NCBI GenBank assembly: GCA_963846445.1
Contig: CAWJWM010000015.1
Location: forward strand, 20,043-84,042
Direction: 5' to 3'
DNA length: 64,000 nucleotides
Source: an uncultured Verrucomicrobiae bacterium
GTDB lineage: Bacteria; Verrucomicrobiota; Verrucomicrobiia; Limisphaerales; J093
The translations under genes and the position numbers were made by a program. Under the pieces are notes generated by a model. It did not search any database. It was given only the letters and a program-made list of their open reading frames with translations, and was not told the origin of the DNA. Within the stretch, counting starts at the first letter, position 1. Every line of letters begins with the position of its first letter. Of this stretch, positions 4,201 through 30,224 are shown piece by piece.

Positions 4201-4938
4201 ATGACAGTAGGGGCGGGGTCACTTTTCAAACAGATTGCGCAATCAATTGGAGATGCAATCGAAACGGGATCGATCGCGGTCGGCGAAATGCTTCCATCCG
4301 AGAAGGCCCTGGCGCTTCGCTATGGCGCAAGCCGCCACACCATTCGCGATGCGCTCAGTGAACTGCGCGCCTTGGGGCTTGTTGAAAGCAGGCAAGGCAA
4401 AGGTTCAATCGTCGTCAAAGCGCGCCGCCAGTCCAGCTACGCGCAGTCGTATTCCTCTATCGAGGAGCTTACGCGGTTTGCATCCGGCACACCGATCCAT
4501 CCGATTGAGGTTGACGACGTGATCGCCGACCAGGCGCTCGCAGGCGATCTTCATTGTGGCGTCGGGCAGTCTTTCGTTCGTATATTGGGGCTTCGTTACG
4601 GCGAAGACGATACCGCGTCGGCGCCCTCCGGATATGTCGAAGTCTATGTTGATGCCAGTTTAAGCAGAATCCGCGCGCACCTGCAGAACTTGAAGACCTC
4701 GATCGCTGAGACTTTGGAGCGGCTCTATAATCTGCAAATTTTCCGTATCGAGCAGGAAATTGCTTTGGTTCTACTTTCCGATGCGATCGCGAAGCACCTG
4801 AAGGTTGAAACAGGTACGCCGGCAATGCTTATCCGGCGCAGGTACGCCGCGGAAAACGGCCGCGTCGTGGAAACCGCATTCAGCTATTATCCGATCGGGC
4901 AGTTCGAATATCGAAACGTGCTGCTTCGTAACAAATAG
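4201..4938 (+). CDS. GntR-family transcriptional regulator (HutC/FarR subfamily, UTRA-type effector domain)
   Basis: 245 aa with an N-terminal winged HTH (EKALALRYGASRHTIRDALSELRALGLVESRQGKGSIV) followed by a roughly 150-aa effector domain. Confidence 0.8.
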   Translation: MTVGAGSLFKQIAQSIGDAIETGSIAVGEMLPSEKALALRYGASRHTIRDALSELRALGLVESRQGKGSIVVKARRQSSYAQSYSSIEELTRFASGTPIHPIEVDDVIADQALAGDLHCGVGQSFVRILGLRYGEDDTASAPSGYVEVYVDASLSRIRAHLQNLKTSIAETLERLYNLQIFRIEQEIALVLLSDAIAKHLKVETGTPAMLIRRRYAAENGRVVETAFSYYPIGQFEYRNVLLRNK

Positions 4939-6080
4939 CCACGATCAAGATTGATCTTACCGCGTCAGCACGTTCAGCAATTTCCAACCATCCCGCCTGC
5001 ATGATCACCGCGATGCCGTGCCCCGCTTTCAGAATGCCTTGCGCCGCGCCGATGCGCATCCAGTGGCCGCTGAAGTCGGCGACGTCGGCAGCATGACGCG
5101 CCGCGTCGACGGTCACACACGCCCGCGACACCCCCCTCAGCAAGGGCCGCAGCAAGAGCACCGCGAAGTGGTCCGCCGGATCGGTCCAATATTCTTCGGC
5201 CATCCAGCCCGTCGCCTGCAAGAGCGCCATCAGCCCTTCGCGCGTGAATTTGTGGCTGTTTTCGGTATGCAGGCTTTCGCCTGCGCGAAAACGGAACGTG
5301 CGGCCCGCAAGCGCCACAACCTGATCCGACTGGCTCACAAGGTGCATTTCAATGCGCGCATCCGCCGCATTCCACCTTGCCTCGTGGCGAAATGCCGCGA
5401 GGTCGAAATTTGCAGCAGCCTCGCGGTTCAGCCGTGCCAGCAGGTTCAGGTTGAAGGCGGCGGTCACGCCCTGCGCGTCGTCATAGGCGCGCAGCAGCAC
5501 GCCGGTGTCTTTCACCAGATCGACGCCCAGCACAAAACCCGCAACGCGCGGCATGCCGCGCAGGCGCAAAAGCAGATCGTGCGCCTGCACCGGATCAAGG
5601 TTGCCCAGCGTGGAGCCGGGAAAGAACAACAGCTTTTCGGTTTGCACGATATGGCGCGGCAGACGCGATGGGCGCCATGAAATCGGCAACCACCGGGTCC
5701 ACCACGATACCGGGAAGATCGCTGGCAACGCTGGCTGCCGTCTGCGCCAGAAACTCCGCTGAAATATCGATCGGCACATAGCGCGTCAGCCGGTTCTGGC
5801 CCGAAAGCAGAATGCGCGTCTTGACGCTGGCTCCGCTGCCAAGCTCGACAAGCGCTGTGCCCTCGGCCACGGCGGCGCAAATCTCGGCTGCGCGGGCGCG
5901 CAATATCGCGATCTCGGTGCGCGTCGGGTAGTATTCCTCAAGCCGGGTGATTTCTTCAAAAAGCTCGCTGCCCGGTTGATCGTAGAACCACTTGGGCGAG
6001 ATCGCCTTTTGCGCCAGCCCAAGCCCTGCAAGGGCATCCTCCAAGAGCGCGGGGTTTGCGATATTGGAATGGTCGAACAT
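4880..6080 (-). CDS. egtD: L-histidine N-alpha-methyltransferase EgtD (ergothioneine synthesis), broken by apparent indels
   Basis: The start ATG at 6080 lies 2 nt after the egtB stop. The N-part (MFDHSNIANPALLEDALAGL...YVPIDISAEFL...VVADFMAP) is in the frame of ORF 5595..6431. The C-part (EKLLFFPGSTLGNLDP...RAYDDAQGVTAAFNLNLL...IEMHLVS...TENSHKF...WTDPADHFAVLLLR) is in the frame of ORF 4880..5779, with the switch near 5655-5675. The roughly 90-aa tail after ...LLLRP follows a C6 run (5131-5136). One base fewer there gives a stop at about 5113, the expected EgtD end. Confidence 0.8.
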
Positions 6081-6082
6081 GG

Positions 6083-7336
6083 TCACGCGTCCTTCGCAAG
6101 CCGCAGGCCGAGCATCTGCCAGCGTTGATGCGGATAGAAAAAGTTCCGGTAGCTTTGCCGCATCTGCGCCAAGGGCGTCGCGCAAGAGCCGCCGCGCAGG
6201 ACAAACTGGTTGACCATGAATTTGCCGTTGTATTCGCCAATCGCCCCTGTCGCGGTGCGAAAACCGGGGTAGGGGGTAAACGGGCTTTGCGTCCATTCCC
6301 AGACGTCGCCCCACATTCCGCCTCCGGCGCGGGGTTGCAGCGCGTCGGTCTCCAGAAAGTTGCCTGCGATGGGGCTCTTGCGCCCGGCCACTTCCCATTC
6401 GGCTTCGGTCGGCAGGCGCGCACCCGCCCACCGCGCGAATGCGTCGGCCTCATAGTAGCTGACATGCACGACCGGCGCGTTCAGATCGACCGGCTCTGCG
6501 CCGTGCAGGGTGAAGGTCCACCACTGGCCGTCCTGCTGCCACCAGTAAAGCGGGTGTTCCCAACCCTCGCGCTTGCGCGCCGCCCAGCCATCCATCAGCC
6601 AGAGCGTCTCGCTTGCATAGCCGCCATCCTGCATGAACGCGATCCAGTCACGATTGCTGACCGGCCGATCCGCAATGGCGAACGCGCTGACAAACATCTG
6701 GTGCCGGGGGCTTTCGCAGTCGAACGCAAATCCGGCGCCATCATGGCCAATCTCGGTCAGCCCGCCGGAGTGCCCGGTAAAGCTCAGCGGCTGCTCGGCG
6801 CCCTGCGGCACCGGCACCGCGTCGCGGTAGGCGGGCAGCAGCGGGTTGTAGGAAAGCGCGTGCAGCAGATCGGTGACGAGCAATTCCTGATGCTGCATTT
6901 CGTGGTGACAGCCGAGCTCGACCAGCCCCGAAATCTCTGCCAGATCGGCCCGGTCCTGCGCCAGCAACGCCTGAATCCCGGCTTCAACCGTCTCGCGATA
7001 CCGCACCACCTCGGCAAACGCGGGGCGCGAGATCAGGCCGCGTTTGTCGCGCGCGTGGCGCGGCCCGGCCTGGACGTAATACGAATTGAACAGCACCGCG
7101 AAGCGGTCGTCGGGCGAGCGGTAGCTGGGCACCCGGGGCTTGAGGATGAACTCCTCAAAAAACCACGTCGTATGCGCCAGATGCCACTTTGTCGGGCTCG
7201 CATCGGTCATCGACTGCAGCATCATGTCTTCGGCGCTCAGCGGTGCCGCGAGCGCATCCGAGCGCGCCCGCGTCGCCGCAAATAGCGCCGCGATGTCGGG
7301 CCGGGGCGTCGCGTTACTCATGTTCTGCTGGTTCAT
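6083..7336 (-). CDS. egtB: Ergothioneine sulfoxide synthase EgtB (DinB-like + FGE-sulfatase domains)
   Basis: 417 aa. Motifs include SPTKWHLAHTTWFFEEF, ELGCHHEMQHQELLVTDLL, GDVWEWTQSPFTPYPGF and LRGGSCATP. Lies directly upstream of egtD. Confidence 0.9.
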   Translation of the reverse strand: MNQQNMSNATPRPDIAALFAATRARSDALAAPLSAEDMMLQSMTDASPTKWHLAHTTWFFEEFILKPRVPSYRSPDDRFAVLFNSYYVQAGPRHARDKRGLISRPAFAEVVRYRETVEAGIQALLAQDRADLAEISGLVELGCHHEMQHQELLVTDLLHALSYNPLLPAYRDAVPVPQGAEQPLSFTGHSGGLTEIGHDGAGFAFDCESPRHQMFVSAFAIADRPVSNRDWIAFMQDGGYASETLWLMDGWAARKREGWEHPLYWWQQDGQWWTFTLHGAEPVDLNAPVVHVSYYEADAFARWAGARLPTEAEWEVAGRKSPIAGNFLETDALQPRAGGGMWGDVWEWTQSPFTPYPGFRTATGAIGEYNGKFMVNQFVLRGGSCATPLAQMRQSYRNFFYPHQRWQMLGLRLAKDA

Positions 7337-7745: not shown

Positions 7746-8203
7746 TCAGAACCAACCCCTTTTCCAGATAGTCGGCGTTGCTGCTCAAAAGCCGGGTCAG
7801 CATCTTGCGAAAGCTCGACTTCATCATCGGCACCAGCAAAAGTCCGAGCAGCCCCATCTTCGGCACAAAATCCATCGTCATGGCCACCTCGGTGCGGTTC
7901 GGCGCCAGCGCGCGAAACGCGATCGTCGCCACGGCCTTCTTCAGCGGCATGGTGCCCTCATAAATATCGATGACCATCTTTTGCTGAGGAAAGTACCCGA
8001 TGATCCGCTCGCGAATATAATTCTTGCCGTCCGCCAGATCACATTGACGTGTTGCTCCGGTTCCCGAAGGCGCCGAATTGTTGATCAGCCGCGATGCCTT
8101 CAGGCTCGGGTTGAACCGCGCGATAGCGCCGAAATTGTCCCAGCTAGCCCAGACATCCAGAAGCGGGGCGGTGACTTCTGCGGGTAACGGTGATCTTGGC
8201 CAT
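7735..8203 (-). CDS. SRPBCC (START/polyketide-cyclase-like) family protein with a 5' frame shift
   Basis: The body (AEVTAPLLDVWASWDNFGAIARFNPSL...DIYEGTMPLKKAVATIAF...) is SRPBCC-like. A good RBS (AGGAGG) plus ATG at 8203 encodes MAKITVT in a different frame. Removing one base from the CCC/GGG run (8182-8184) gives MAKITVTAEVTAPLLDVW. Confidence 0.7.
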
Positions 8204-8338
8204 GACGAGCCTCCTGTGTTGGTTTCGGGCGCGCTTTGGCGCGCTCTGTGTTGACAATGTAGCGGATTGCGGAGCAACAAATAGACGAAGAAACTATTAG
8301 AGACGGATCATAAACGATCCACATGAGAGGGCATTGGA

Positions 8339-9220
8339 ATGGCCGCTATTGCAGACTGGGACGGCCTGCGAATTTTTCTGGCCTGCGCCCGCAAGACCAG
8401 CTTGCGCGCGGCAGCCGAAGATTTGCGCGTCAACCACGCGACCATCAACCGCGCGATCAGCGGTCTGGAGCAAGCCCTTGGCACGCGCGTGTTCGAGCGC
8501 TCGGTGGCCGGGCTCACACTGACACAGCCGGGCGAAACCCTGCTTCGACACGCCGAAGAAATGGAGCGGCAGGCGCGTCTCGTCGGCATCAAACTTGCGG
8601 GTCTCGATGCAAAGCCTTCGGGGGTAATCCGGGTCTCGCTGCCAACATCTCTGACCACCACGTTCATCGCCCAGATTCTTGCCGGGTTCACCGAAGCCTT
8701 CCCCGAAATCGACGTCGAGGTGATCGCGACCAACCGCATCACCAACCTTGGCAAGCACGAGGCCGATGTCTCGATCCGTGTTGCGCACGAGGTCGAGGAT
8801 GATGTCGTTGGCCGCCGTGTCGTGCGTTTTGTCGTGGGCGCCTACGCCTCACCCGCCTATCTGGCTCGGCACCCGAACCTTGAAGTCGGCGATGGAACCG
8901 GCGCGCATTGGGTCGGCTGGGGCGGCAAACGCGCCTGGGTCAAGGATACGCCGTTCCCCAACGCGACGGTCCGCCACGGCCTGCCCGAAGTGTTCATGCA
9001 AATGGCCGGTGCGGCAAACGGGCTTGGCATGGTCTGGGTGCCGTGTTTTCTGGGCGATGCCGACAAACGATTGGTGCGTGTGCCCGGGGTTGTGCCGCAG
9101 CCGGACCGGTCGATCTGGGTCTTGCTGCATGGCGATCTGCGCAGCAGCGCGCGGGTGCGCGCCTTTGTCGATTACACGGTTGCCGCAATCAAGAAGGCCA
9201 GCAACCGCTTTACGCGGTGA
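8339..9220 (+). CDS. LysR-family transcriptional regulator
   Basis: 293 aa with an N-terminal HTH (WDGLRIFLACARKTSLRAAAEDLRVNHATINRAISGLEQALGTRVFER) and a LysR substrate-binding domain. Divergent from the SRPBCC gene. Confidence 0.9.
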   Translation: MAAIADWDGLRIFLACARKTSLRAAAEDLRVNHATINRAISGLEQALGTRVFERSVAGLTLTQPGETLLRHAEEMERQARLVGIKLAGLDAKPSGVIRVSLPTSLTTTFIAQILAGFTEAFPEIDVEVIATNRITNLGKHEADVSIRVAHEVEDDVVGRRVVRFVVGAYASPAYLARHPNLEVGDGTGAHWVGWGGKRAWVKDTPFPNATVRHGLPEVFMQMAGAANGLGMVWVPCFLGDADKRLVRVPGVVPQPDRSIWVLLHGDLRSSARVRAFVDYTVAAIKKASNRFTR

Positions 9221-9324
9221 GCGCCGCAAGCGCGCAGCGGGGAAGACGAACAATGTGCCTGTCTGCGCAGCTTCGATGCGCACGCTTGTTCAACAATCTT
9301 GCTAGCGGTTGAACATGCCGCTAC

Positions 9325-9398
9325 GCGCCTTTGTCGATTACACGGTCGCCGCAATCAAGAAGGCGAGCAGCCGCTATACAGGCTGAGCGCCGCGAGCG
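9325..9398 (+). repeat. Degenerate duplicate of the LysR gene 3' end (copy of 9159-9232)
   Basis: GCGCCTTTGTCGATTACACGGT(T/C)GCCGCAATCAAGAAGGC... recurs 166 bp downstream with about 8 mismatches over 74 bp, including the stop-codon region. Confidence 0.8.
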
Positions 9399-9418
9399 GG
9401 CGGGGCAATCGTCTGCGC

Positions 9419-10171
9419 TCAGGCAAAGACACCCGGCGTCACCTCGGTGCCCTTGGCGAGCGAAGTCTTGCGCGTCATCGGGATCAGCACACCGGCCTGG
9501 CGCATGGCGCCCACCTGCATGATCATCTCGCTGACCGCGCCAGAATGCGGGCGCGCGCTTATCTTGTTGAACCAGCCGTTTACGTGTGGGTGCGCCGCCC
9601 ATTCGGTGGGGCCCACGATTGCGCCCGCAACGTGCGACACCAGCTCGTGATACGCCAATAGATCGGCGAAGCTGATGTCATCACCGCAAAGATAGGGGCT
9701 CTTGGCCAGCCAGCGTTCCAGTTGCTTCAGCAATTCGTCGAGCGTGTATCGGCCCTTCGCGATTTCTTTTGAATAGTCGTTCTTGCCCCAGATGCACTCG
9801 GCAAAATGGGTGTAGAAAAAGGCCCCGGCGCCCCGGCGAAGATAGGTGGCGTGCCAGTGGCAATATTGCTGGATGTTTGCTCGCTGTTGCGGTGTCGCCC
9901 CGAACCAGTTCGAGGGTGCGGCGTATTTTTCGTTAAGGTAGTAGGCAATCGCCGAGCTTTCCCAGACCACGAAGTCACCATCGACCAGGATCGGCACCTG
10001 TCCGGTCGGGTTGTAGGTGTCTTTGAAGCTCTGCTTCTCGTTGTCGCCGTCCATCAGGTTCACGACCTCGTCGTCGAATGGTATTCCGATTTCGAGCATG
10101 AACTGGTGCACGGCGCGGCAGGGCTGCGACGTGGGGTGGTGCAAGAAGCGTACCTTGGTTGTCATGTGCAT
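9419..10171 (-). CDS. Theta-class glutathione S-transferase resembling dichloromethane dehalogenase (DcmA-like)
   Basis: 250 aa. Motifs VRFLHHPTSQPCRAVHQFMLEIGIPFDDEVVNL, YNPTGQVPILVDGDFVVWESSAIAYYLNEKY, ISFADLLAYHELVSH, ARPHSGAVSEM and RKTSLAKGTEV match my recollection of Methylobacterium DcmA (LYHPASQPCRSAHQFMYEI..., YNPTGQVPILVDGEFTVWES..., ERPHAKTVSEW, RKTAVLKGTEV). The GST fold is certain; DCM activity is inferred. Confidence 0.75.
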   Translation of the reverse strand: MHMTTKVRFLHHPTSQPCRAVHQFMLEIGIPFDDEVVNLMDGDNEKQSFKDTYNPTGQVPILVDGDFVVWESSAIAYYLNEKYAAPSNWFGATPQQRANIQQYCHWHATYLRRGAGAFFYTHFAECIWGKNDYSKEIAKGRYTLDELLKQLERWLAKSPYLCGDDISFADLLAYHELVSHVAGAIVGPTEWAAHPHVNGWFNKISARPHSGAVSEMIMQVGAMRQAGVLIPMTRKTSLAKGTEVTPGVFA

Positions 10172-10388
10172 TTCCTCCCTTTGCTTGCGTGTTCATGTCA
10201 GAGCACCGCCACGCTTCTGATGCTCTCTCCCGTTTTCGTCGGCCGAAATCTGGCTGGGTTTGGCGTGGATTGGCGCGCGCCTCCCTGCGCCGCCGCCCTG
10301 ACGCGGGTCGCCCCTGCGTCACACCTCGTTCCTTAACAACCCCCTAACGCCACCGCCATCCCCTTCATTTTCAACCACATTACCGCCC

Positions 10389-10404
10389 ATAACACGCGTG
10401 TTAT
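10389..10404. promoter_or_regulatory. Perfect 16-bp palindrome ATAACACGCGTGTTAT between adhC and the GST gene
   Basis: Read directly from the sequence. It has no spacer, so it looks more like a dimeric protein-binding site than a hairpin. It lies 8 nt after the adhC stop and about 215 nt upstream of the GST start. Confidence 0.3.
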
Positions 10405-10411
10405 CGCGCCC

Positions 10412-11539
10412 TCAGAACACCACCACGCTGCGGATGCTCTCGCCCGATCGCATCAACTCGAAGCCCTTGTTGATCTCATCGAGGCTCAGAACATGGGTGA
10501 TCATCGGGTCGATCTCGATTTTGCCGTCCATGTACCAGTCGACGATTTTCGGCACGTCGGTGCGGCCCCTCGCGCCGCCAAAAGCGGTGCCTTTCCAGAC
10601 CCGCCCGGTCACCAGCTGGAACGGCCGCGTCTGAATTTCGGCCCCCGCCGCCGCCACCCCGATCACGACCGAAACCCCCCAGCCCCGGTGCGTGCATTCC
10701 AGCGCCTGCCGCATCACGGTGACGTTTCCGGTGCAGTCGAACGAATAATCGGCGCCGCCGATCTGGTCGAACGGGGTTTTCGTGAGGTTCACGATATGCG
10801 CCACCACGTCGCCCACCTCGCGCGGGTTCACGAAATGCGTCATCCCGAAGCGCTCGCCCCAGGCCCGCTTGGCGGGGTTGAGATCGACCCCGATGATCAT
10901 GTCGGCGCCCGCCAGCCGCAGCCCCTGGATCACATTGAGCCCGATGCCGCCCAGCCCGAACACCACCGCCTTGGCGCCGATTTCCACCTTGGCGGTGTTG
11001 ATCACCGCCCCCACCCCGGTGGTGACCCCGCAGCCGATGTAGCAGGCCTTGTCAAAGGGCGCGTCGTCGCGGATTTTCGCCAGCGCGATCTCGGGCATCA
11101 CGGTGTGGTTGGCGAAGGTCGAGCAGCCCATGTAGTGCAGAATCGGCGTGCCGTTCAGCATCGAAAACCGGGTGGTGCCGTCGGGCATCAGCCCCTTGCC
11201 CTGAGTCGCGCGGATCGCGGTGCAGAGGTTGGTCTTGCGGGAAAGGCACGAGGGGCATTCGCGGCACTCGGGCGTATAAAGCGGTATCACGTGGTCGCCC
11301 GGTTTCAGGCTGGTGACACCCGGCCCGCATTCGAGCACCACGCCCGCGCCCTCATGCCCCAGAATCGCCGGAAACAACCCCTCCGGGTCGGCGCCCGACA
11401 GGGTGAAATCGTCGGTGTGGCAGATGCCGGTGGCCTTGATTTCCACCAGAACCTCGCCCGCGCGCGGGCCCTCAAGGTTCACTTCCATCACTTCCAGCGG
11501 TTTGCCGGCCTGCAAGGCCACGGCGGCACGGGTTCTCAT
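10412..11539 (-). CDS. adhC: S-(hydroxymethyl)glutathione dehydrogenase / class III alcohol dehydrogenase
   Basis: 375 aa matching the class III ADH signature along its full length ([63 protein letters not shown]). Confidence 0.95.
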
Positions 11540-11901
11540 TGCGCAATCCTCTCCCCTAGTACGTCAGTCAGCCACGCGACGGGCCGGCCCTCTCTCCTCC
11601 CATCGGGATTTGATACCCGACAGACGACCACGCGAAACCGGGACTCTGGTGGCGTTGCGCGCTCCCCCGCCGCCACCGAACATCCGTTTTAATGGTCATT
11701 GATTATCAATGCTGATCTTCGTGATTACCTGAGTCAAGCTTAATGTTGATCACGATCTTGAAAGCGATTGGCGAGCTGGCAAATCTCTGAAAAGACGACT
11801 GCATTCCATCGGGCCTATCGCAGGCAGGCAGAAATCCCTTGTCACGCAGGCTGACCGGCGCGGCTGCATCGCTTGCACAGACACTGTTTCAAGGCTATCG
11901 A

Positions 11902-11919
11902 TGTTCATCATGATGAACA
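11902..11919. promoter_or_regulatory. Perfect 18-bp palindrome TGTTCATCATGATGAACA with extra TGATGAACA-like half-sites; candidate operator of the DcmR-like regulator
   Basis: The palindrome was read directly. Further half-sites are TAATGAACA (about 11926-11934) and TGATGAACA (11971-11979). It sits in an AT-rich 360-bp divergent region between adhC and the HTH-MEDS gene. Confidence 0.45.
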
Positions 11920-11963
11920 AAGAGCATAATGAACACATGGCGGTCAGCGGAATTCCCACTGAC

Positions 11964-12753
11964 ATGAAACTGATGAACATTCACGAGGCCGCCCGTTTCC
12001 TGCGCGTCAGCGAAGTCTCGGTTCGGCGCTACACCAAATCCGGCGCCTTGCGCTGCCTGCGCGTTGGCGGGCGGCGGGAGCGCCGGTTTGAGCGTGAGGA
12101 TCTTGAGGCATTTGTTGGCGCGAACAGCCCGGCCCGCACCCTTGCCGAAGCGTCAAAGCCAATCGACGCGCCGCAGCCAACACTCGGTCCGGCAGATGTC
12201 GCGGCACCGGAGTTCGCCACAATCGAGGGTATGCCGGTGCCATGGGGACGGCATCTGTGCCAGCTCTATGAAACGGATCGCGGCCGCGTGCAGATGACCG
12301 TGCCGTTCCTGAATGATGGTCTGAACGCGGGCGACGCCTGTTTTTTGATCGCGTCCGAACCCGCACGCGCGCACCTGATCGAGGCGCTGCGCCGGGTTCG
12401 CGGCGACCTTCGGTCCGGATATTGACGCGGGGCGCCTGCGCGTGATCGACCACGCCCAGAACGGTAGCGCGATGCTGGCCGCGCTCGACGAGGCCTTTGG
12501 CGCAGCGATGGAAGAGGGTTTTGGCAAGCTGCGGCTGGTGGGCGACATGGCATGGTTTCTGGACCAAGGGCTCAGTGGCGACGAGTTGGTGAATTTCGAG
12601 ACCCGCTATGACCGCCAGATCGGCCACAGCTATCCGATCATTAGCCTCTGCCTCTACGACGCCCGGCGCTTCAGCGGAATCGAAATTCTTCATGCGCTCA
12701 AAAGCCACGCCGACACGTTCGATCTGCCACTCAGCCGGTTCCTTCTGCGCTAG
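11964..12753 (+). CDS. HTH (excisionase/MerR-like) + MEDS-domain regulator, DcmR-like; one internal frame shift
   Basis: N-terminal HTH: MNIHEAARFLRVSEVSVRRYTKSGALRCLRVGGRRERRFERED. MEDS hallmarks: HLCQLYETDRGRVQMTVPFLNDGLNAGDACFLIA, LRLVGDMAWFL, LVNFETRYD, ISLCLYDARRFSG and LHALKSHA. The domain is split between ORFs 11901..12425 and 12442..12753, with the frame switch near 12395-12405. The start could also be 11901 or 11973. Confidence 0.8.
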
Positions 12754-13085
12754 GTGTGAAGTCGCAGCAGGTTGATAACCCGGAGCGGGGTTGGAAAACT
12801 CTGCCTTCGGGCGGTCCAGCGTTCGGCGGGCGGACCAGCAGGTCACGACCAGCGAGCTTTGCCCGGTCGGCATGCCGATCAGGCATGTCGCCTAGAGAGA
12901 CATTTCAACTGAACTTGGCGCGAAAGTAGCTTGTGGGTACACCATGAAGCAGATCAGCTACACGAAATCCGCGATCAGGGTATTGCTGTGTTTCGGCGTG
13001 CAAAATTGACCCCCATGGCGGGGTGATCGGCGTCCAATTTTGACCCCCCTCAGGTTTTGTCTGACCATTCGCTTTTGGGCAGCGG

Positions 13086-14667
13086 ATGGAGTGGGAGTTG
13101 AAGAGAGTGGATACGATCGCACGCGTTCGCCGGGCCTTTCATGTACAGGGCTGGTCGATGAAGAGGATCAGCCGGGAGCTGCATGTCTCTCGCAACACGG
13201 TGCGCAAGATCCTGCGGTCAGGCGAGACTGACTTCACCTATGAGCGCGAACACCAGCCGCTGCCGAAGATCGGGCCTTGGGTTGAGCATGTTGACCGGTT
13301 CTTGCTTGCCAATGAGGGTAAGGCATCGCGAGAACGGCTGACGCTGATCCGGATTTACGAGGAAGTTCGTGCCCTTGGATATGCGGGCAGCTACGACGCT
13401 GTCCGACGCTATGCCAAGACCTGGGCGAAGGCCCGTCGGGTCGATCACGGCAGACGCCTATGTGCCGCTCTATTATGCGCCGGGCGAGGCCTACCAGTTC
13501 GACTGGAGCCATGAGATCGTGCTGATCAACGGCGTGACGGTGACGGTGAAGGTCGCCCATGTCCGGCTTTGCCACAGCCGGATGATGTTCGTCCGGGCCT
13601 ATATGCGTGAGAGCCAGGAGATGGTGTTCGATGCGCATGATCGGGCGTTCGCGTTCTTTCGTGGCACCTGCACGCGGGGCATCTATGACAACATGAAGAC
13701 GGCGGTTGAGACGGTATTTGTTGGCAAGGAGCGCCTCTACAACCGCCGCTTCCAACAGATGTGCAGCCATTACCTCATCCAGCCGGTCGCATGCACGCCG
13801 GCATCGGGCTGGGAGAAAGGCCAGGTCGAGAACCAGGTCGGGCTTGTGCGCGAGCGGTTCTTCACGCCGCGCCTGCGGGTCAAAAGCCTGGATGAGTTAA
13901 ACGTCTGGCTGCTTGATAAATGTATCGCCTACGCCAAAGCGCATCGGCATCCAGAGCAAACAGATCAGACGATCTGGCAGATGTTCGAGGCCGAGCGGCC
14001 TCATCTGGTGGGTTACGCTGGCCCCTTTGATGGTTTCCACAGCGTCCCGGCCTCGGTGTCAAAAACTTGCACGGTGCGGTTTGATAACAACAAATATTCG
14101 GTGATCTCGACGGCCGTCGGGCGGCCTGTCGAGGTGCATGCCTACGCCGAACGGATTGTCATTCGTCAGGACGGGGCTGTCGTTGCAGAACATCCCCGGT
14201 GCTTTGGCCGATTTGAGACGATTTACGATCCTTGGCACTATGTCCCTGTTCTGGCTCGCAAACCCGGTGCACTGCGCAATGGCGCCCCGTTCCGTGACTG
14301 GGTTCTGCCCGCCGCCATGGCCACGATCCGCCGCAAGCTGAAAGGCGTCAGCGATGGCGACAAACAAATGGTCTCGATCCTCGGCTGCGTATCCGCCGAT
14401 GGGATCGCCGCTGTGGAGGCCGCCTGCAAGGAGGCGCTGGATCAGGGCGTCTTCTCCGCCCCGGTGGTCATCAACATTCTGGCCCGAAGCCGCGATCTGT
14501 CACCGGCTCCGCTTCTTCTCACCCCAGCGACGCTGCGTCTGGCCCATGAACCGGTGGCTGATTGCGCGCGCTACGACAGCCTCAGGAGGACCAACACATA
14601 TGGAACGCACCCAAATCCTCGACTTGATGAGCAGCCTCAAGCTCTATGGAATGCGCAGTGCTTATGA
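13086..14667 (+). CDS. istA: IS21-family transposase IstA (frame-shifted near 13430-13440)
   Basis: The N-terminal HTH part ([36 protein letters not shown]) is in ORF 13086..13514. The DDE core ([19 protein letters not shown]...[17 protein letters not shown]...[10 protein letters not shown]) is in ORF 13369..14667. Confidence 0.9.
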
Positions 14668-15328
14668 CGAGGTCATGGCCTCCGGCATCAAGCGCCAGCA
14701 CGAACCGCCCCGCATCTTGGGCGACCTGCTGCAGTCCGAGATCGCCGAGAAGCAGGCACGCTCGATCCGCTACCAGCTCACCATCGCAAAGCTGCCGCTG
14801 GCGAAGGATCTGGATGACTTTGACTTCACCGACACGCCAGTCAATGCGGGCTTGGTCCGAGACCTTGCAACCGGCACCTTCGTGGCCGATCAGCGCAATG
14901 TCGTGCTGGTCGGCGGCACCGGAACCGGCAAATCGCATCTGGCGATCGCTATTGCCCGCGCGCTGATCCGCAACGGCACACGCGGGCGGTTCTACAATGT
15001 CGTCGATCTGGTCAATCGTCTCGAGACCGAGACCCGCAGCGGCAAACAGGGCCGCCTGGCTGATTACCTGAACCGCCTCGACTTCATCATCCTGGACGAA
15101 CTTGGCTATCTCCCCTTCGCCCAGGCTGGCGGCCAGCTCCTGTTCCACCTCATCAGCAAACTTTACGAACGCACTTCCGTCATCGTCACCACCAACCTCG
15201 CCTTCGGTGAATGGCCAAGCGTCTTCGGGGACGCCAAGATGACCACCGCGCTCTTGGACCGCCTCACCCATCACTGCGAGATCGTCGAAACCGGCAACGA
15301 GTCCTGGCGCTTCAAAAACCGCGCCTGA
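14600..15328 (+). CDS. istB: IS21-family helper ATPase IstB
   Basis: [25 protein letters not shown]..., Walker [18 protein letters not shown], and Walker [10 protein letters not shown]. An RBS AGGAGGA lies at 14584-14590, and the gene overlaps the istA 3' end. Confidence 0.9.
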
Positions 15329-15514
15329 CGCCAACGGATTTTGGTCTGACCCGCCTTCGTCATATGACCACTCCGTTGGGTCAGACCAAAATCCTACGCC
15401 ACCGAGGGGGTCAAATTTGGATGCCGATAGGGGGTCAGTATTGCGTGCTGATTGACATCTGATAGCTGACGCCCGATCTCAGTTCCGCGTCGCGCAGGGT
15501 TTTCTCATTCAGTT

Positions 15515-16663
15515 TCAGTCTCTTGCCAGCGCCGCGAAATAGACTGCGCTGGCACGGTCGATCTCGCCGATGGCTCGGGCCTGCACGGCATTGAACTTGG
15601 CCCCGATCTCCTCACGCTTTGCCTCGGCTTCCGCAATCGGTCCCTGGTTCTGGTTCAGGATGGGGAGGTCCATCGAGACGCCGAGTTGCCACTTGTTCTC
15701 GGTCTGATCGAGTTCGTAACCCGGTCCGAGATGGGTGTCGGGATATTGCCTAGCTATTTGCAGCTGGAGCGCGGACTCGCTGGCGGCATATTCAGCGAGC
15801 GCGCTCAAAACATCCGCGCGATTCAGAACGGCCTGGCGCTGGATTTCGGCGGAGGTGAGGTTCGTCGGAAATGCGGCCAGGTCGGGATACGAGTAGCGCA
15901 CGCCGTCGAGTGCGCCCAGTGGCACGCCGATGGCCTCGGCAAGTTGGCCACGGGCCTCCGCCTCTTGGCGTCGGGCGTCTTTCAGGCTGAGCTGCGCATT
16001 CTGGCGCGCCACACGCGCCTGCGAGACTTCCACGGGTGAAACGGCACCGGCTTCCCATTGGACTTCCACCAGGCGCGCGACGCGATCCAACGCGTCGCCC
16101 TGTTCGTGCAGCAACGCGGCGGTTTCCTGCGCCGCCTGGAGCGCGAGGAGGCTCGTGCGCACGCGATTGCGCACAAGCCAGGCCGCGCTCGCCAGATCGA
16201 ATCGCGCCATTTCGCCGAGGTACTGTGCCTGGGCGACGCGATACTTGCGCTTGCCCATCGTCTCGACCGGGATGTCCAGTACGCCGCCGAGAATCCACGG
16301 CGTGATCCCGGCGCCGATGGACGACGAATTGAGGCCCGGCGTGAACGCCAGGTTCGGATTCGGCCGCTGGGCAGCGGTGGCAATTCCGGCGGTCGACGCG
16401 TGCCATCGGGCCCGCGCGACGTCCATGTCGGGGTGGTAATAGAAGGCGGCCAGGGTCAGCGCCTCGAAATCCCAGCGTTCACGCGGCCAAGCGGCCGCCA
16501 GGCCATTGGTCTCGAGGAACGCCTTCAGCCCCAGGTCTTCGAGGCTCCGCCGGCCGAAGGCGTCAACGGCCTTGGCCGGAGCGAGTGGTTGGGGGTGGTA
16601 TCGCGCGCAGCCCGTCGCGAGCACGACCACGATCGCCAAGCAGACGACTGAAAAGACGTACAT
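15515..16663 (-). CDS. Outer-membrane efflux factor lipoprotein (TolC/NodT/CzcC family), 3'-disrupted
   Basis: Lipobox VVVLATGC followed by OMF repeats. The ORF stops at 15515, but a shifted frame continues LKLNEKTLRDAELRSGVSYQ up to the IS21 end at 15458. So the gene has a frame shift and is truncated by the IS. No MFP or RND partner is adjacent. Confidence 0.75.
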   Translation of the reverse strand: MYVFSVVCLAIVVVLATGCARYHPQPLAPAKAVDAFGRRSLEDLGLKAFLETNGLAAAWPRERWDFEALTLAAFYYHPDMDVARARWHASTAGIATAAQRPNPNLAFTPGLNSSSIGAGITPWILGGVLDIPVETMGKRKYRVAQAQYLGEMARFDLASAAWLVRNRVRTSLLALQAAQETAALLHEQGDALDRVARLVEVQWEAGAVSPVEVSQARVARQNAQLSLKDARRQEAEARGQLAEAIGVPLGALDGVRYSYPDLAAFPTNLTSAEIQRQAVLNRADVLSALAEYAASESALQLQIARQYPDTHLGPGYELDQTENKWQLGVSMDLPILNQNQGPIAEAEAKREEIGAKFNAVQARAIGEIDRASAVYFAALARD

Positions 16664-18125: not shown

Positions 18126-21100
18126 TCACCGGGCCGGAATTGGGTGGCGCCCGCAGGCTGGTGAGACTGCGTGAGGTCTGGTTGCCAATGCACACTGATA
18201 CTCAACGGTGGTTCGGCCCAACGTGAGCGAGGTGCGCTTACCAGGTGACGGCAACGTGCTGCTCTCGACCGCGAGCAGGGCCGGACCCGACGGCCAGGCC
18301 GAGTCGTTGTAGCCGGACAGGTACCAACCCGTGCCTTCGAGGTTGGCGGTCTGGTTGTACTTCCACGTTGCGCCGAGCGAAAGCAGGTCGACGGTGGTCG
18401 TGGCCAAGGTGCAGTCGCCCAGGGCGGTACCCGGATTTCCGCCGCCGGGCGTCGGCTGAGCGAATGCGGTGAACCTATCTGCGCCATTCGGTGAGCGTCC
18501 TTCCGAAACGTCTGTCCGCTGCGCGCCGTAGTTGATCGCGTCAATCAGCTCCAACTCGGTCGAGTAGAGGAGAATGACGCCGACGTCAGGCGAGAGCTTG
18601 AAGCTGAGGTGATCCGCGCCCTGCTCCGGATCGCTATCTGCAACGAACTCGGCGTAGCCCTTGCCGGCGATGAAACTGAGCGGGGCGACAGGATGCCGCT
18701 TCGGCTCGCCCGCGGCGTCCGAGAGGAACAGGCCGCCCAGCGCCACCGGGATGGGATCGGGATTGTGGAGTTCGAGGAAATCGTTGCGCGCCACGAACTG
18801 GGCGTCGGCGAGCCATTCGTTAATCCGCAGGGTGTGCGGATCGCCTGTGAGCTGCGGCAGGTTCGCTCCGCCGAAGATCGGTTGGCAGAGTCCCCAAACG
18901 CCCTCGGTCAACCGCCCGAGGGTGTTGTTGATCAGCGTGTAGAAATTGCCCTGCTTGGCGGTGACCGCGTTGTCGCAGTCGAAGAACAGATTCCCGACGA
19001 TCGTAATCTCTGAGGCATTGCCGCCATTGCCGCCGCCCGAGACCGCAGCCGAACTGTCCGGCGCGCCATTGCGGTGGACATGCAGGAAGATGTTCCCCTC
19101 GATCCAAGCATCGGTGCCATCTAGATCCAGGATGTCGTCCGTCGAGCCGACGAAAACATTGTTGTAGAACTGGATGATGGGTTGCCCCGGGCGGTTTCCC
19201 CCGGTGAAGTCCACGATGTCGCTGTAGCCAATGCTGGAGCCGAAGTAACTGTCGCGCACGATGCCGCGGCCCCCGGTCCTGATGCCGCCCGTGCCATGCA
19301 GCGGCTCGACGGCTGCCGTCGTGGCCGGGAAGTAACAATGACTGATGACGAACGAACTGTCGTCGAGGTCCAGGTACCGATGGCTGGTTGTACCGAAGGT
19401 GGCGTGATCGAGATGGAGCGTGCCGCCGGCGACCTCGATGCAGGTGGTGCCATTCCCTTCAAAATGCGCGTAGGCGATGCGTGTCTCAGGCGAGCCGACG
19501 ACGCCATTGATGGTGAGACCGCCCCAACTCCCCGTCGCGCCCGGCAGGACCGTGAACCGGATCGGCGCCGTCACGGTGCCCTCCGCGACCAAGCGACCGC
19601 CGTTGGCGACGGTCATATCGACCCCCGAACCGAAATACACCGTCGTGCCCGGCTCGATCGTGAGTGTCACTCCGCCGCTCACCGCAAGGTCGGCGGTGAC
19701 GCTGTAAGGCCCGCCTGCCGCAGTCCAAGTCGTGTTGGCCGCAATCGCGCCGCTGATGGTCTGTACCGAACCGTCGTCGTACCAGACGTCGAGCGTCGTC
19801 CTTTCGACTTCGCGATCCCCGTCGCCCAACGCCTGCACGAGCACGCGATTCAGACCGGGGTGGAGGTCGACGCTGTCGTTTGTCCAGGCGGCCTGCCAAG
19901 CGGTCCACTGCGCAGTGCTGCCGTTGATCAACACCCGGCGCGTGTCGATCGCGTTGCCCTGCCCGGAGAGCGCAATCGTCGCGTTGGTGGTCCGGGGATA
20001 CCCATTGACGACGGAAAGACGATGCGCGACGGTGAGCGCCCGCGGGAACTGGGAGAGGACATAGGCGACGTGGTTCGAGTTGAAGGCCTTCACGTTCGAG
20101 ATCGTGCCCGCATCCACGTAACTCGCCAGGAGATGGTCGAGCAGTGGGTTCATGTGTGCGGGCGCGAAGGTCGTCTCGGCCAAGGCTTCGAGGTGCTTGA
20201 AATACAGGGGCACAAACTCCGAACGCTTCATGAAACGATCGATCACCGCGACGTTGGTCATCCGCCAGATGCCGTCGGCGCAGGTCGTCGTCCGCAAGCC
20301 GCGTCCCATCACTGCATCCAAGTCGTAAGGCAGGAGCAGGAACCGGGTGTCGTTGGTGCCGCGATACAGTGCGAAGTCGTCCCCTTCGCCGATGCCCAGG
20401 CTCGCCTCCTGGTTGTCGAGCAGCGTGTTGACGGCAAAGTACTTCATCCACTCGTCGACGTTGACGACGCTCTGGACGTCGCTCATGTAGGTGTTATCGG
20501 GCGCGTGATTGAGCAGGTCGAGCAGGTGAATGAAGTCGGACCAATCGTTGGCGGCGGCGTTGTTCTCCTTGGCGTAGGCGTTGGTGTAACTTGTGTAGGA
20601 TGACCCATGCCACGCCAGGTCAGCCTCGGAATTGATGCCGGGAATCATGTCCCGGATCCCGCGATACAGATTGCCCTTGTCATCAAGTGGGAACTGGCGC
20701 TGCACCAGCCGGTCGTCCACCACTTCGTTGGCGACGTAGGAACCGAACTGCTCCTGGTCTGGCTTGGCGAGGTTGAGTCGCATTCACGCGCACCTGGACA
20801 GGGCGTGAGTCCGCCGTCGGGATGCCGAGTCGGCGGAACACGGCGCTGCCCAGGTGTTGTGAGTGGGTGTAGTGCGTGTTGAGGTTGATCCCGAAACGGC
20901 CTTTCCAGATTCGATCTTTCGGAAAGCCGACGTGGAAATTGTGGGGGACAGAGTTCCGCGTGCCATGCCCGCGGTTGCGAAAGTCGCATTGGTAGCGCAG
21001 GTGCGTAGTCGTGCCGCCGTCCAGCACACCATCAGTGCTGACAAACGTGCCATTCACCACGGCATCGCTCGACGGTTCATCACCCCAGATCTCGGTCGAG

Positions 21101-29912: not shown

Positions 29913-29928
29913 ATGACATTTTTGTCAT
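29913..29928. promoter_or_regulatory. Second CusR/CopR-type box (ATGACATTTTTGTCAT)
   Basis: Perfect ATGACA-N4-TGTCAT palindrome with the same core as 22225-22244. It lies 47 nt upstream of the methyltransferase start and about 300 nt upstream of the giant gene start. Confidence 0.5.
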
Positions 29929-30224
29929 TCTCACTGGAATCCTCGCGGCGCGGACGCAGTCGAGTACGGCCTGCCCTTGTTGTGGGTTCAAGGGAGTCGA
30001 TCCGATGGCCCGGGCCTCGAAGAGCACCCGCAGACGCCACGAAGCACGCAACCTGTTACCCGCCCTACAGGCAGGCAGCTTGCAGGCGAAGACCGCGTTC
30101 CCGCAACTCAATCATGTCGCGGAAAACCACTTCGCGTGGACCCATCGGAACTCCCGAGCCGGTGCGGTGTTTTGGCAATGATGGGCTGACATCCAGAACG
30201 AAACCAGATGACCTCAGGAGCTCC

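What the first reader, a model, noticed from the sequence alone, without database searches (positions are those of the whole stretch)
9419..12753. Compact dichloromethane-dehalogenase-like locus: DcmA-like GST + GSH-dependent formaldehyde dehydrogenase + divergent DcmR-type (HTH-MEDS) regulator, next to an IS
Seen: a theta-type GST (9419-10171), adhC (10412-11539) and a divergent HTH+MEDS regulator (11964-12753). Established: the MEDS domain is named after DcmR, the regulator of dcmA in methylotrophs. DcmA turns CH2Cl2 plus GSH into S-(hydroxymethyl)glutathione/formaldehyde, which is the AdhC substrate. Known dcm islands are flanked by IS elements. From memory, the GST shares long identical stretches with Methylobacterium DcmA (SQPCR catalytic-Ser region, YNPTGQVPILVDG-F-VWES, RPH---VSE-, RKT--LKGTEV). 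Inference: this is a dihalomethane or related halo-/formaldehyde-generating GST module with built-in detoxification and its own sensor. It may be mobile, since the IS21 element starts 234 bp downstream.
Basis: partly seen in the sequence, partly recalled or inferred. Interest (0 to 1): 0.65.

Follow-up and report, generated by a model that had tools for sequence, protein, structure and literature searches.

The report
DcmA-like dehalogenase module with adhC
This gene cluster joins a close cousin of the bacterial dichloromethane-degrading enzyme to the enzyme that would detoxify its formaldehyde product and to a matching sensor-regulator; the cousin belongs to a large, untested sister family found in many environmental bacteria, so the enzyme's chemistry may be far more common in nature than thought.

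Summary
A 248-aa theta-class GST (9419-10165, -), a bona fide adhC (10412-11539, -) and a divergent HTH_17+MEDS regulator (11901-12753, +) lie 233 bp from an IS21 element (12986-15457).

- **GST:** it is 49-50% identical over its full length to both characterised dichloromethane dehalogenases (DM4, DM11). Ordinary GSTs reach only about 30%. It falls in an uncharacterised sister clade, not inside the DcmA clade.
- **Regulator:** it is a full-length DcmR homolog (41% identity). One extra C at 12411 breaks its frame. A 96-97.5%-identical intact ortholog exists elsewhere.
- **Recurring linkage:** clade I GSTs sit next to adhC (once adhC-fghA) and/or DcmR-type regulators in at least 6 subclades and several gene orders. 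One metagenome contig (L090) repeats the window's layout exactly.
- **Mosaic structure:** the GST sits in a ~0.9-kb cassette bracketed by ghost 3' ends of a lysR and an adhC. The regulator-adhC pair also occurs without the GST.
- **Mobility:** IS21-driven mobility is not supported. There is one IS copy, its istA is broken and it has no target duplication.

Most likely function (inferred, untested): GSH-dependent dehalogenation of a dihalomethane to S-(hydroxymethyl)glutathione, which AdhC then oxidises. I class it as a new variant of a known kind.

The parts
9419..10165 (-). DcmA-like theta-class GST of clade I, 248 aa (an alternative upstream ATG at 10171 would give 250 aa). Catalytic Ser15 lies in the SQPCR motif. 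The C-terminal tail RKTSLAKGTEV is invariant.
9317..9401 (+). Ghost 3' end (including the stop codon) of a second lysR gene, 86% identical to the resident lysR end at 9151-9235. It is the right-hand scar of the GST cassette. In close relatives, a 1,105-nt segment carrying a 339-aa gene sits exactly at 9317/9319.
10198..10232 (-). Ghost 3' end (including the stop codon) of a second adhC gene, 30/35 identical to the resident adhC end at 10412-10446. It lies 32 nt upstream of the GST start codon. It is a relic of an ancestral adhC'-GST operon.
   Evidence: The window's GST subclade uniformly has adhC immediately upstream.
10412..11539 (-). adhC, encoding S-(hydroxymethyl)glutathione dehydrogenase (class III alcohol dehydrogenase), 375 aa.
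   Evidence: TIGR02818, 566.9 bits against a cutoff of 543.95. It is 97.6% identical to the adhC of L114.
11540..11900 (.). AT-rich divergent regulatory region. It holds the perfect palindrome CATTGATTATCAATG (11697-11711), further TGATCA and TTGAT half-sites, and a TTGACTC box. These are a candidate operator and promoter for adhC-GST.
   Evidence: This is an inference and has not been shown.
11901..12753 (+). DcmR-type regulator (HTH_17 + MEDS). Its frame is broken by one extra C at 12411; removing that base gives a 283-aa protein.
12986..15457 (+). IS21-family element. Its istA (13086-14667) is broken by an extra base at 13443, and its istB runs from about 14600 to 15328. Terminal multi-repeats lie at 12993-13048 and 15396-15452. 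It has no target-site duplication.
8339..9220 (+). Resident LysR-family regulator, convergent with the GST. It belongs to the conserved egtD-egtB-DUF427-SRPBCC-lysR backbone shared with Phaeovulum-like relatives.

Best explanation
This is a chromosomal mosaic locus in a Phaeovulum-like Paracoccaceae genome. Three functionally matched parts have been joined:
1. a DcmR-type HTH-MEDS repressor;
2. its divergently transcribed adhC;
3. downstream of adhC, a horizontally acquired cassette carrying a theta-class GST from the uncharacterised sister clade of the dichloromethane dehalogenases.

Proposed mechanism:
- The GST uses its N-terminal serine (Ser15, SQPCR motif) to activate glutathione. The activated glutathione attacks a dihalomethane (CH2Cl2, CH2Br2, CH2BrCl or CH2I2) or a chemically equivalent C1 electrophile.
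- The S-halomethylglutathione product hydrolyses to S-(hydroxymethyl)glutathione.
- AdhC oxidises that to S-formylglutathione, removing the genotoxic and formaldehyde-generating intermediate. An fghA located elsewhere in the genome would complete the path to formate.
- The DcmR-type regulator represses the adhC-GST promoter, probably by binding TTGAT-N-ATCAA-type sites, until an effector binds its MEDS domain.
- If the frameshift in this sequence is genuine, adhC-GST expression would be constitutive.

Shown: the homologies, clade placement, synteny recurrence, mosaic junctions and frameshift. Inferred: the substrate, adhC-GST co-transcription, the operator and repressor behaviour.
For: - GST homology: 49% identical to DM4 DcmA and 50% to DM11 DcmA over the full length, including the family-specific C-terminal tail.
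- Conserved residues: 50 positions are >=95% conserved and identical in both clades. The catalytic SQPCR motif is universal.
- Isolated superfamily: scores fall from 271 bits to 157 bits or less for ordinary GSTs, and the best plasmid GST is 31% identical.
- Regulator homology: 41% identical to canonical DcmR over 255 aa, E = 3e-63, with the same HTH_17+MEDS architecture. DcmR is a stand-alone repressor (PMC11197473, citing La Roche & Leisinger 1991).
- adhC as neighbour: adhC is the most recurrent neighbour of clade I GSTs, in 9 GST-ascertained loci. L090 repeats the reg<>adhC>GST layout. L035 has adhC>fghA>GST. L097 adds a DcmB-like gene.
- Regulator partners: regulators >=60% identical to the window's sit next to clade I GSTs in L021, L115-117 and L118/119. 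In L115-117 a TodX/FadL hydrophobic-compound channel lies between them.
- Scattered linkage: the linkage is scattered over at least 6 subclades.
- Ghost adhC end: the ghost adhC end 32 nt upstream of the GST shows an older adhC'-GST operon.
- No terminator: no terminator-like site was found on the coding strand between adhC and the GST.
Against: - No enzyme from clade I has been assayed.
- The GST lies outside the clade bounded by the two characterised DcmA types.
- Thirteen positions are fixed differently between the clades. They are concentrated at residues 107-133 and in the C-terminal tail, regions that line the electrophile site in theta GSTs, so the substrate may differ.
- Most clade I genes have neither adhC nor a DcmR-type gene nearby: about 27 of 34 loci with full flanks.
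- The regulator-adhC pair exists without the GST in L114, so the regulator may primarily serve adhC.
- dcmB and dcmC are absent, and no fghA lies in the window.
- The regulator is frame-broken here.
- The proposed operator rests on AT-rich k-mers from only 7 regions.
Confidence: 0.5

Rival explanations
1. The GST is a detoxifying glutathione transferase for a different class of small electrophiles, such as epoxides like ethylene oxide, methyl halides or other haloalkanes. Human GSTT1 handles compounds of this kind. On this view the tie to adhC is loose or reflects oxidation of other S-(hydroxyalkyl)glutathiones.
For: - The clades differ at 13 fixed positions clustered at 107-133 and in the C-terminal tail.
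- The closest solved folds are the broad-specificity human GSTT1 and GSTT2.
- MEDS sensors also serve ethylene and epoxyethane systems (PMC11197473).
- A TodX/FadL channel next to the GST in L115-117 points to an exogenous hydrophobic substrate, not necessarily a dihalomethane.
- Most clade I GSTs stand alone.
Against: - adhC is a strict TIGR02818 equivalog and is the single most recurrent neighbour.
- L035 couples the GST to the complete adhC-fghA formaldehyde route.
- Both the GST and the regulator have their nearest characterised relatives in the dcm system.
- A DcmB-like gene accompanies GST-adhC in L097.
Confidence: 0.2
2. The unit is primarily a formaldehyde-stress module. The DcmR-type regulator senses formaldehyde or S-(hydroxymethyl)glutathione and controls adhC. 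The GST plays an accessory role in glutathione-dependent formaldehyde handling, for example adduct formation or turnover, rather than dehalogenation.
For: - In L114 the regulator (97.5% identical to the window's) is paired with adhC alone, with no GST within 8 kb.
- L035 embeds the GST in an adhC-fghA operon.
- In the window the regulator is adjacent to adhC, not to the GST.
Against: - Other regulators of this subfamily (60-70% identical) sit directly beside clade I GSTs without adhC: L021, L086, L118/119 and L115-117.
- Canonical DcmA is not induced during growth on methanol, when formaldehyde is abundant (PMC7760279).
- Most clade I GSTs are unlinked to adhC.
- No GST is known to be required for glutathione-dependent formaldehyde oxidation (established knowledge).
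Confidence: 0.15
3. The juxtaposition has no functional meaning here. It is a by-product of rearrangements in a decaying or mis-assembled region, and the regulator is a dead gene.
For: - Three frame-broken genes lie within 8 kb: egtD, the regulator and istA.
- Ghost gene ends and an illegitimate junction lie at about 10233-10331.
- The IS21 lacks a target duplication, and synteny with L114 ends nearby at 12794.
Against: - The same GST-adhC junction occurs in an independent sample at 91% identity (L105).
- The same three-gene architecture recurs at 77% GST identity in L090.
- The GST and adhC reading frames are intact and have good ribosome-binding sites.
- The GST is 98% identical to orthologs in Phaeovulum MAGs.
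Confidence: 0.1

Closest known systems
DcmA dichloromethane dehalogenase / theta-class GST (EC 4.5.1.3): type A from Methylorubrum extorquens DM4 (P21161), type B from Methylophilus leisingeri DM11 (P43387)
   Same: 49-50% identical over the full length. It shares the catalytic Ser in the SQPCR motif, the YNPTGQVPILVDG block and the RKT..KGTEV C-terminal tail. Fifty positions are >=95% conserved and identical across both clades.
   Different: It belongs to the sister clade (248-aa class) and lies outside the clade spanned by types A and B. It lacks the 20-40-residue C-terminal extension. Thirteen positions are fixed differently, for example F119/Y120 against H/W and R113 against L. Its activity is untested.
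dcmRABC gene cluster and dcm island of DCM-degrading methylotrophs (DM4, Hyphomicrobium GJ21, Ancylobacter dichloromethanicus; L004, L079, L085)
   Same: A divergent DcmR-type regulator faces the operon that carries the GST, and an IS element lies nearby (PMC2680597, PMC7760279).
   Different: dcmB and dcmC are absent. adhC is inserted between the regulator and the GST. There is only one, defective, IS on one side. The host is not a known methylotroph or DCM degrader, and the flanking genes are ordinary chromosomal genes.
DcmR (HTH + MEDS stand-alone repressor of dcmA and dcmR)
   Same: It has the same HTH_17+MEDS architecture and similar length. It is 41% identical over 255 aa and is divergently oriented.
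   Different: Its frame is broken by one extra C at 12411 in this sequence. The published DM4 promoter motif GATC(C/G)ATAGCCT is not conserved in this subfamily, which instead shows TTGAT/TGATCA repeats. Its effector is unknown.
Glutathione-dependent formaldehyde oxidation operons (adhC/flhA/frmA with fghA/frmB)
   Same: It contains a bona fide adhC (TIGR02818 equivalog). A related locus, L035, has adhC-fghA-GST.
   Different: The window has no fghA. A DcmA-like GST occupies the downstream position. The regulator is of the DcmR type, unlike the FrmR-, NmlR- or FlhRS-type regulators I recall for such operons (recalled, not checked here).
Human theta-class GSTT1-1 and GSTT2-2 (PDB 2C3N, 1LJR, 4MPG)
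   Same: These are the closest solved folds (TM 0.77-0.82). Both use a catalytic serine. GSTT1 is known to activate dihalomethanes (established knowledge).
   Different: They are only 27-31% identical to the window GST, and they lack the conserved bacterial RKT..KGTEV tail.

Membership tests
DcmA dichloromethane dehalogenase (theta-class GST, EC 4.5.1.3) | Theta-class GST fold with an N-terminal catalytic serine (Ser12 of the DM11 enzyme, in the motif SQPCR) | tested here: met
   GST_N and GST_C domains. The best PDB matches by sequence and fold are GSTT2 and GSTT1. SQPCR is present, with Ser15 aligned to the DM11 serine. The role of Ser12 is recalled from Vuilleumier & Leisinger 1996 and was not re-read here.
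DcmA dichloromethane dehalogenase (theta-class GST, EC 4.5.1.3) | Falls inside the clade delimited by the biochemically characterised type A (DM4) and type B (DM11) enzymes | tested here: not met
   In an NJ tree of 227 homologs rooted with human GSTT2, the window GST lies in sister clade I (162 sequences). Both DcmA types lie in clade II (65 sequences). The tree is distance-based and has no bootstrap support values.
DcmA dichloromethane dehalogenase (theta-class GST, EC 4.5.1.3) | Superfamily-specific conserved C-terminal tail (RKT-x3-KGTE) and a high overall identity that sets it apart from other GSTs | tested here: met
   The tail is aligned and conserved. Identity is 49-50%, against 31% or less for plasmid GSTs. 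There is a gap from 271 to 157 bits in the exhaustive search.
DcmA dichloromethane dehalogenase (theta-class GST, EC 4.5.1.3) | GSH-dependent conversion of CH2Cl2 to formaldehyde and chloride | not testable with these tools
   This needs an enzyme assay. Only indirect support is available, from the recurrent adhC, fghA and DcmR linkage.
dcmRABC island | dcmB and dcmC downstream of dcmA | tested here: not met
   tblastn with DcmB and DcmC from L004 finds nothing in the 64-kb window.
dcmRABC island | IS elements flanking the dcm genes (a composite, transposon-like setting) | tested here: not met
   There is one IS21 copy on the regulator side only. The other side is the conserved egt-lysR backbone. 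istA is frameshifted and there is no target-site duplication.
DcmR-type regulator | N-terminal HTH plus C-terminal MEDS domain, homologous to DcmR over the full length | tested here: met
   HTH_17 scores 4.6e-11. MEDS is matched in two pieces at 8.6e-10 and 5.1e-17. It is 41% identical over 255 aa to the DcmR of L004, E = 3e-63.
DcmR-type regulator | Intact reading frame | tested here: not met
   An extra C at 12411 relative to the 96%-identical intact ortholog in L114 leads to a stop codon at 12423. egtD and istA nearby are also broken, so an assembly error cannot be excluded.
DcmR-type regulator | Divergently transcribed from the dehalogenase gene it represses, and responsive to DCM | tested here: inconclusive
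   It is divergent from adhC-GST rather than from the GST directly. Repression and the effector cannot be tested here.
AdhC / class III alcohol dehydrogenase (S-(hydroxymethyl)glutathione dehydrogenase) | Scores above the TIGR02818 equivalog cutoff | tested here: met
   566.9 bits against a cutoff of 543.95, covering model positions 2-367 of 368.
IS21 family | istA (HTH + rve + Mu-transposase C-terminal domain) followed by istB (IstB_IS21), with terminal inverted multi-repeats | tested here: met
   Pfam domains, inverted repeats, and 81% DNA identity to annotated IS21-like elements. istA carries a +1 frameshift at 13443, whereas the copy in L103 is an intact 510 aa.

The most novel reading that the evidence does not exclude
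Clade I may be a widespread, ancient family of natural-dihalomethane dehalogenases acting on CH2Br2, CH2BrCl, CH2I2 and CH2Cl2. It comprises hundreds of 90%-identity clusters in Alpha- and Gammaproteobacteria, Myxococcota, Planctomycetota, SAR324 and even a cyanobacterium. It has its own DcmR-type sensors and is repeatedly wired to glutathione-dependent formaldehyde oxidation. On this reading the industrial-era DcmA enzymes are a specialised offshoot, and these genes mark an unrecognised microbial sink for ozone-relevant halomethanes.
Probability: 0.3. Interest if true: 0.75.

Novelty: new variant of a known kind. Interest (0 to 1): 0.55.

Why it matters
In the papers I could read, aerobic DCM degradation is described as resting on one conserved enzyme, DcmA. 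It is known from a handful of near-identical dcmRABC clusters in methylotrophs from contaminated sites (PMC7760279).

This locus shows that a much larger and more diverse sister family exists. It shares the catalytic motif, the C-terminal tail and the DcmR-type regulator, and it has repeatedly been coupled to adhC, and once to adhC-fghA. If these enzymes dehalogenate dihalomethanes, three things follow:

- The chemistry would be widespread in marine and soil bacteria. That is relevant to the natural bromo- and iodomethane budgets and to natural attenuation of DCM.
- The adhC coupling would illustrate a way of handling the genotoxic S-halomethyl/formaldehyde intermediate without a methylotroph's pathways.
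- The regulators would be ready-made biosensor parts.

All of this can be tested directly with one cloned gene.

Tried and rejected
1. **DM4 dcm promoter motif GATC(C/G)ATAGCCT.** The window's only 1-mismatch copy lies in the regulatory region (11892-11903). The motif is absent from the 93%-identical L114 region and from every other clade I locus, so I rejected it as coincidence.
2. **First placement of the regulator frameshift.** I first placed it at about 12396-12400, in a G-run, and suspected a homopolymer error. The L114 ortholog moved it to an extra C at 12411, which is not in a homopolymer.
3. **Exact-sequence look-ups of the window GST.** The 250-aa form, the 248-aa form and P0233 all found no contig.
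4. **Genome and metagenome scans.** Neither returned a GST more than 81% identical to the window's. Closer strains came only through cluster members.
5. **Plasmid origin.** Only the IS matches plasmids, and no DcmA-like GST occurs on any of 72,556 plasmids.
6. **Composite transposon or IS21-mobilised module.** Rejected: there is a single IS, no target duplication and a broken istA.
7. **RNA elements and consensus promoters.** There are no credible Rfam matches in 8000-16000 and no strict sigma-70 consensus promoter in 9200-13000.
8. **fghA in the window.** No GHSMGG motif is present.
9. **Literature.** I searched for a description of the sister clade or of marine DcmA homologs. I found nothing beyond automatic dcmA calls in Binatota genomes.
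10. **Primary DcmR paper.** La Roche & Leisinger 1991 (PMC209020) is not held, so DcmR's repressor role is cited second-hand from PMC11197473 and PMC9320726.


Full report
**1. What is in the sequence**

The three genes exist as described.
- The GST ORF runs 9419-10171 on the minus strand. Its GGAGG ribosome-binding site fits the second ATG at 10165, giving 248 aa, the length of nearly all homologs.
- The GST carries GST_N and GST_C domains. Its nearest solved relatives are the human theta-class enzymes GSTT2 and GSTT1, by sequence (E = 5e-29) and by fold. The fold comparison used an AlphaFold model with pLDDT 85.6, giving TM 0.82 and 0.77-0.78.
- adhC (10412-11539, minus strand) passes the strict NCBIfam equivalog model for S-(hydroxymethyl)glutathione dehydrogenase, at 566.9 bits against a cutoff of 543.95.
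- The divergent regulator has an HTH_17 domain and a MEDS domain split over two reading frames.
- The IS21-family element occupies 12986-15457.

**2. Is the GST DcmA-like?**

Yes, but it is not inside the DcmA clade.
- I brought authentic enzymes into the session: DM4 DcmA (P21161 = P0216) and DM11 DcmA (P43387 = P0169).
- The window GST is 49% and 50% identical to them from end to end.
- This is far above the GST background. The best match among 72,556 plasmids is 31% identical.
- In an exhaustive scan of 1.84 billion representatives, scores fall from 271 bits for a full-length DcmA-clade member to 157 bits or less for ordinary GSTs. Only 16 representatives reach E <= 1e-30.
- A neighbour-joining tree of 227 homologs, rooted with human GSTT2, splits this compact superfamily in two. 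Clade II has 65 sequences and contains both characterised DcmA types plus a 268-aa class. Clade I has 162 sequences in 248-aa and 255-aa classes. The window GST is in clade I.
- Fifty positions are >=95% conserved and identical in both clades, and the catalytic SQPCR motif is universal. Thirteen positions are fixed differently: K50R, H107Y, R113L, A115G, F119H, Y120W, W128Y, Y133F, I217Q, M232F, S237A, L238V and A239L. They cluster at 107-133 and in the tail.
- By analogy with theta-class structures, those segments line the electrophile site. That is my inference and was not measured.
- I found no paper describing clade I. The literature I could read treats DcmA as a conserved enzyme known from near-identical dcmRABC clusters (PMC7760279).

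**3. The regulator**

- Once repaired, it is 41% identical to the DcmR of a canonical dcmRABC locus over 255 residues (E = 3e-63). It is therefore a true DcmR homolog. DcmR is described as a stand-alone HTH+MEDS repressor (PMC11197473).
- A 96-97.5%-identical, intact 283-aa ortholog in a Paracoccaceae MAG (L114) settles two points. The gene starts at 11901, and the window carries one extra C at 12411 (CTT-C-GGT), which leads to a stop at 12423.
- egtD is also split: Pfam profile positions 3-140 and 132-303 lie in different frames. It is intact at 313 aa in relatives.
- istA has an extra base at 13443, whereas a Rhizobium copy is an intact 510 aa.
- Three broken genes within 8 kb mean I cannot tell a genuine pseudogene from an assembly error.

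**4. Does the three-gene linkage recur?**

I fetched 80 loci from species-representative genomes and 17 from metagenomes. I scored them by tblastn.

Among clade I loci found through the GST:
- adhC is adjacent in L007, L011, L035, L089, L090, L092, L093, L097 and L098.
- A DcmR-type regulator is adjacent in L007, L011, L021, L086 and L090.
- L090 has exactly the window's layout: divergent regulator, then adhC, then the GST.
- L035 has adhC, then fghA, then the GST.
- L097 adds a DcmB-like gene.

adhC is the most recurrent neighbour in an unbiased clustering of flanking ORFs.

Starting from the regulator instead, relatives 60-70% identical sit beside clade I GSTs:
- in a Bradyrhizobium MAG (L118/119);
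- in L115-117, where a TodX/FadL-type outer-membrane channel lies between the regulator and the GST.

The linked GSTs are scattered over at least six subclades, in different gene orders. Clade II also shows DcmR+DcmB, and once adhC, in L078.

Against this, about 27 of 34 clade I loci with full flanks have neither partner.

**5. The locus is a mosaic**

- The GST is bracketed by two ghost gene ends, each with its stop codon in register. One is an 85-nt copy of the lysR 3' end (9317-9401, 86% identical to 9151-9235). The other is a 35-nt copy of the adhC 3' end (10198-10232, 30/35 identical to 10412-10446).
- GC content of the GST is about 57%, against about 67% for adhC.
- The nearest named relatives are Phaeovulum sp. 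MAGs.
- Close strains share the egtD-egtB-DUF427-SRPBCC-lysR backbone at 95% identity and carry both 85-nt copies. They have an extra 1,105-nt segment with a 339-aa NTP_transf_8 gene exactly at 9317/9319.
- One of these strains (L105) continues from the GST into adhC with the window's spacing, at 91% identity. The junction is therefore real and shared between samples.
- Homology to L114 covers only 10388-12794 (adhC, the intergenic region and the regulator). There, adhC is followed by a MAPEG gene and flagellar genes, with no GST. Homology to L110 runs from adhC to 10331.
- So a resident regulator-adhC block is joined, through an illegitimate junction at about 10233-10331, to a GST cassette. 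That cassette once sat directly behind a different adhC.
- The window's GST subclade uniformly has adhC immediately upstream, which agrees with that history.

**6. Mobility**

- The IS21 is a single copy on one side. Its istA is broken, and no target-site duplication is visible (flanks GGGTATTG | TCTGATAG).
- The other side is conserved chromosomal backbone.
- The IS may have taken part in the rearrangement that ended synteny with L114, but the element does not frame the module.
- Horizontal transfer of the GST is instead supported by three observations: the cassette scars; the lower GC content; and 63-80% identity across distant phyla, including Planctomycetota, SAR324, Myxococcota and a cyanobacterium.

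**7. Regulatory region**

- The stretch 11540-11900 is AT-rich. It contains the window's only perfect CATTGAT-T-ATCAATG palindrome (11697-11711).
- Across seven independent regulator-side regions, several words are enriched: TTGATC in 6 of 7, TTTGAT in 6 of 7, TGATCA in 5 of 7 and TGACTC in 5 of 7. Background frequencies are 0.07-0.21 per 250 nt.
- The 11-mer TTGATTATCAA is shared with L115.
- I regard this as a candidate operator and promoter. The caveat is that AT-rich intergenic DNA inflates such words.

**8. Interpretation**

The most economical reading is as follows.
- The GST performs DcmA-type chemistry on a dihalomethane or an equivalent C1 electrophile.
- AdhC removes the S-(hydroxymethyl)glutathione it produces.
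- A DcmR-type repressor gates expression. That repressor may be inactive in this strain.

This rests on homology and recurrent synteny, not on any assay, so I give it 0.5. The rivals are:
- a different electrophile (0.2);
- a primarily formaldehyde-responsive module (0.15);
- a meaningless or decaying juxtaposition (0.1).

I class the locus as a new variant of a known kind. It is dcm-like in its enzyme and regulator. It differs in belonging to an uncharacterised sister clade, in having adhC in place of dcmB and dcmC, and in sitting in a non-methylotroph chromosomal setting.

Noticed in passing
window 4880-6431 (-): egtD, the histidine methyltransferase of ergothioneine synthesis, is split over two frames. 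Pfam Methyltransf_33 positions 3-140 lie in ORF 5595-6431 and positions 132-303 in ORF 4880-5779. Close relatives have an intact 313-aa gene. With the regulator and istA, this makes three frame-broken genes within 8 kb.
   Followed up: partly
window 9317-9319; L104 1195-2299 (about 8748-9852 on the reversed locus): Close relatives carry a precise 1,105-nt extra segment with a 339-aa NTP_transf_8/DUF6788 gene between lysR and the GST. The window lacks it. The segment sits between the two 85-nt lysR-end repeats, so it behaves like a gene-sized cassette insertion or deletion.
   Followed up: partly
L114 6790-9692: A Paracoccaceae MAG has the same regulator (97.5% identical) and adhC (97.6% identical) as a divergent pair with no DcmA-like GST. 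A MAPEG-family (membrane glutathione transferase-like) gene and flagellar genes follow adhC.
   Followed up: partly
L115 2680-5837 (also L116, L117): A DcmR-type regulator is divergent from a TodX/FadL-type outer-membrane channel (Toluene_X). The channel is followed by a clade I GST 68% identical to the window's. This hints at uptake of a hydrophobic or volatile substrate.
   Followed up: no
L035 7995-10738; L097 2633-5816: L035 (a Sandaracinaceae MAG) has adhC, then fghA (GHSMGG motif), then a clade I GST. L097 has the GST, then adhC, then a DcmB-like gene 64% identical to canonical DcmB.
   Followed up: partly
L038-L053 and L055-L083: A 268-aa class within the DcmA clade (60-67% identical to DM4 DcmA) is common in Candidatus Binatia, Rhodospirillales and other MAGs. 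It often has a divergent DcmR and a downstream DcmB but no DcmC. DcmA-clade genes are therefore much more diverse than the published near-identical set.
   Followed up: partly
window 12986-15457: The IS21 element has no target-site duplication. It carries a perfect 17-nt inverted repeat (15336-15352 / 15378-15394) just after istB. Synteny with L114 ends at 12794, which is 192 nt before the IS. The origin of 12795-12985 is unknown.
   Followed up: partly
window 29913-37721 (+): A very long ORF of 2,602 aa lies in the window, along with glycosyltransferase genes and a CotH-kinase-like gene (18126-20783). These were not examined further.
   Followed up: no
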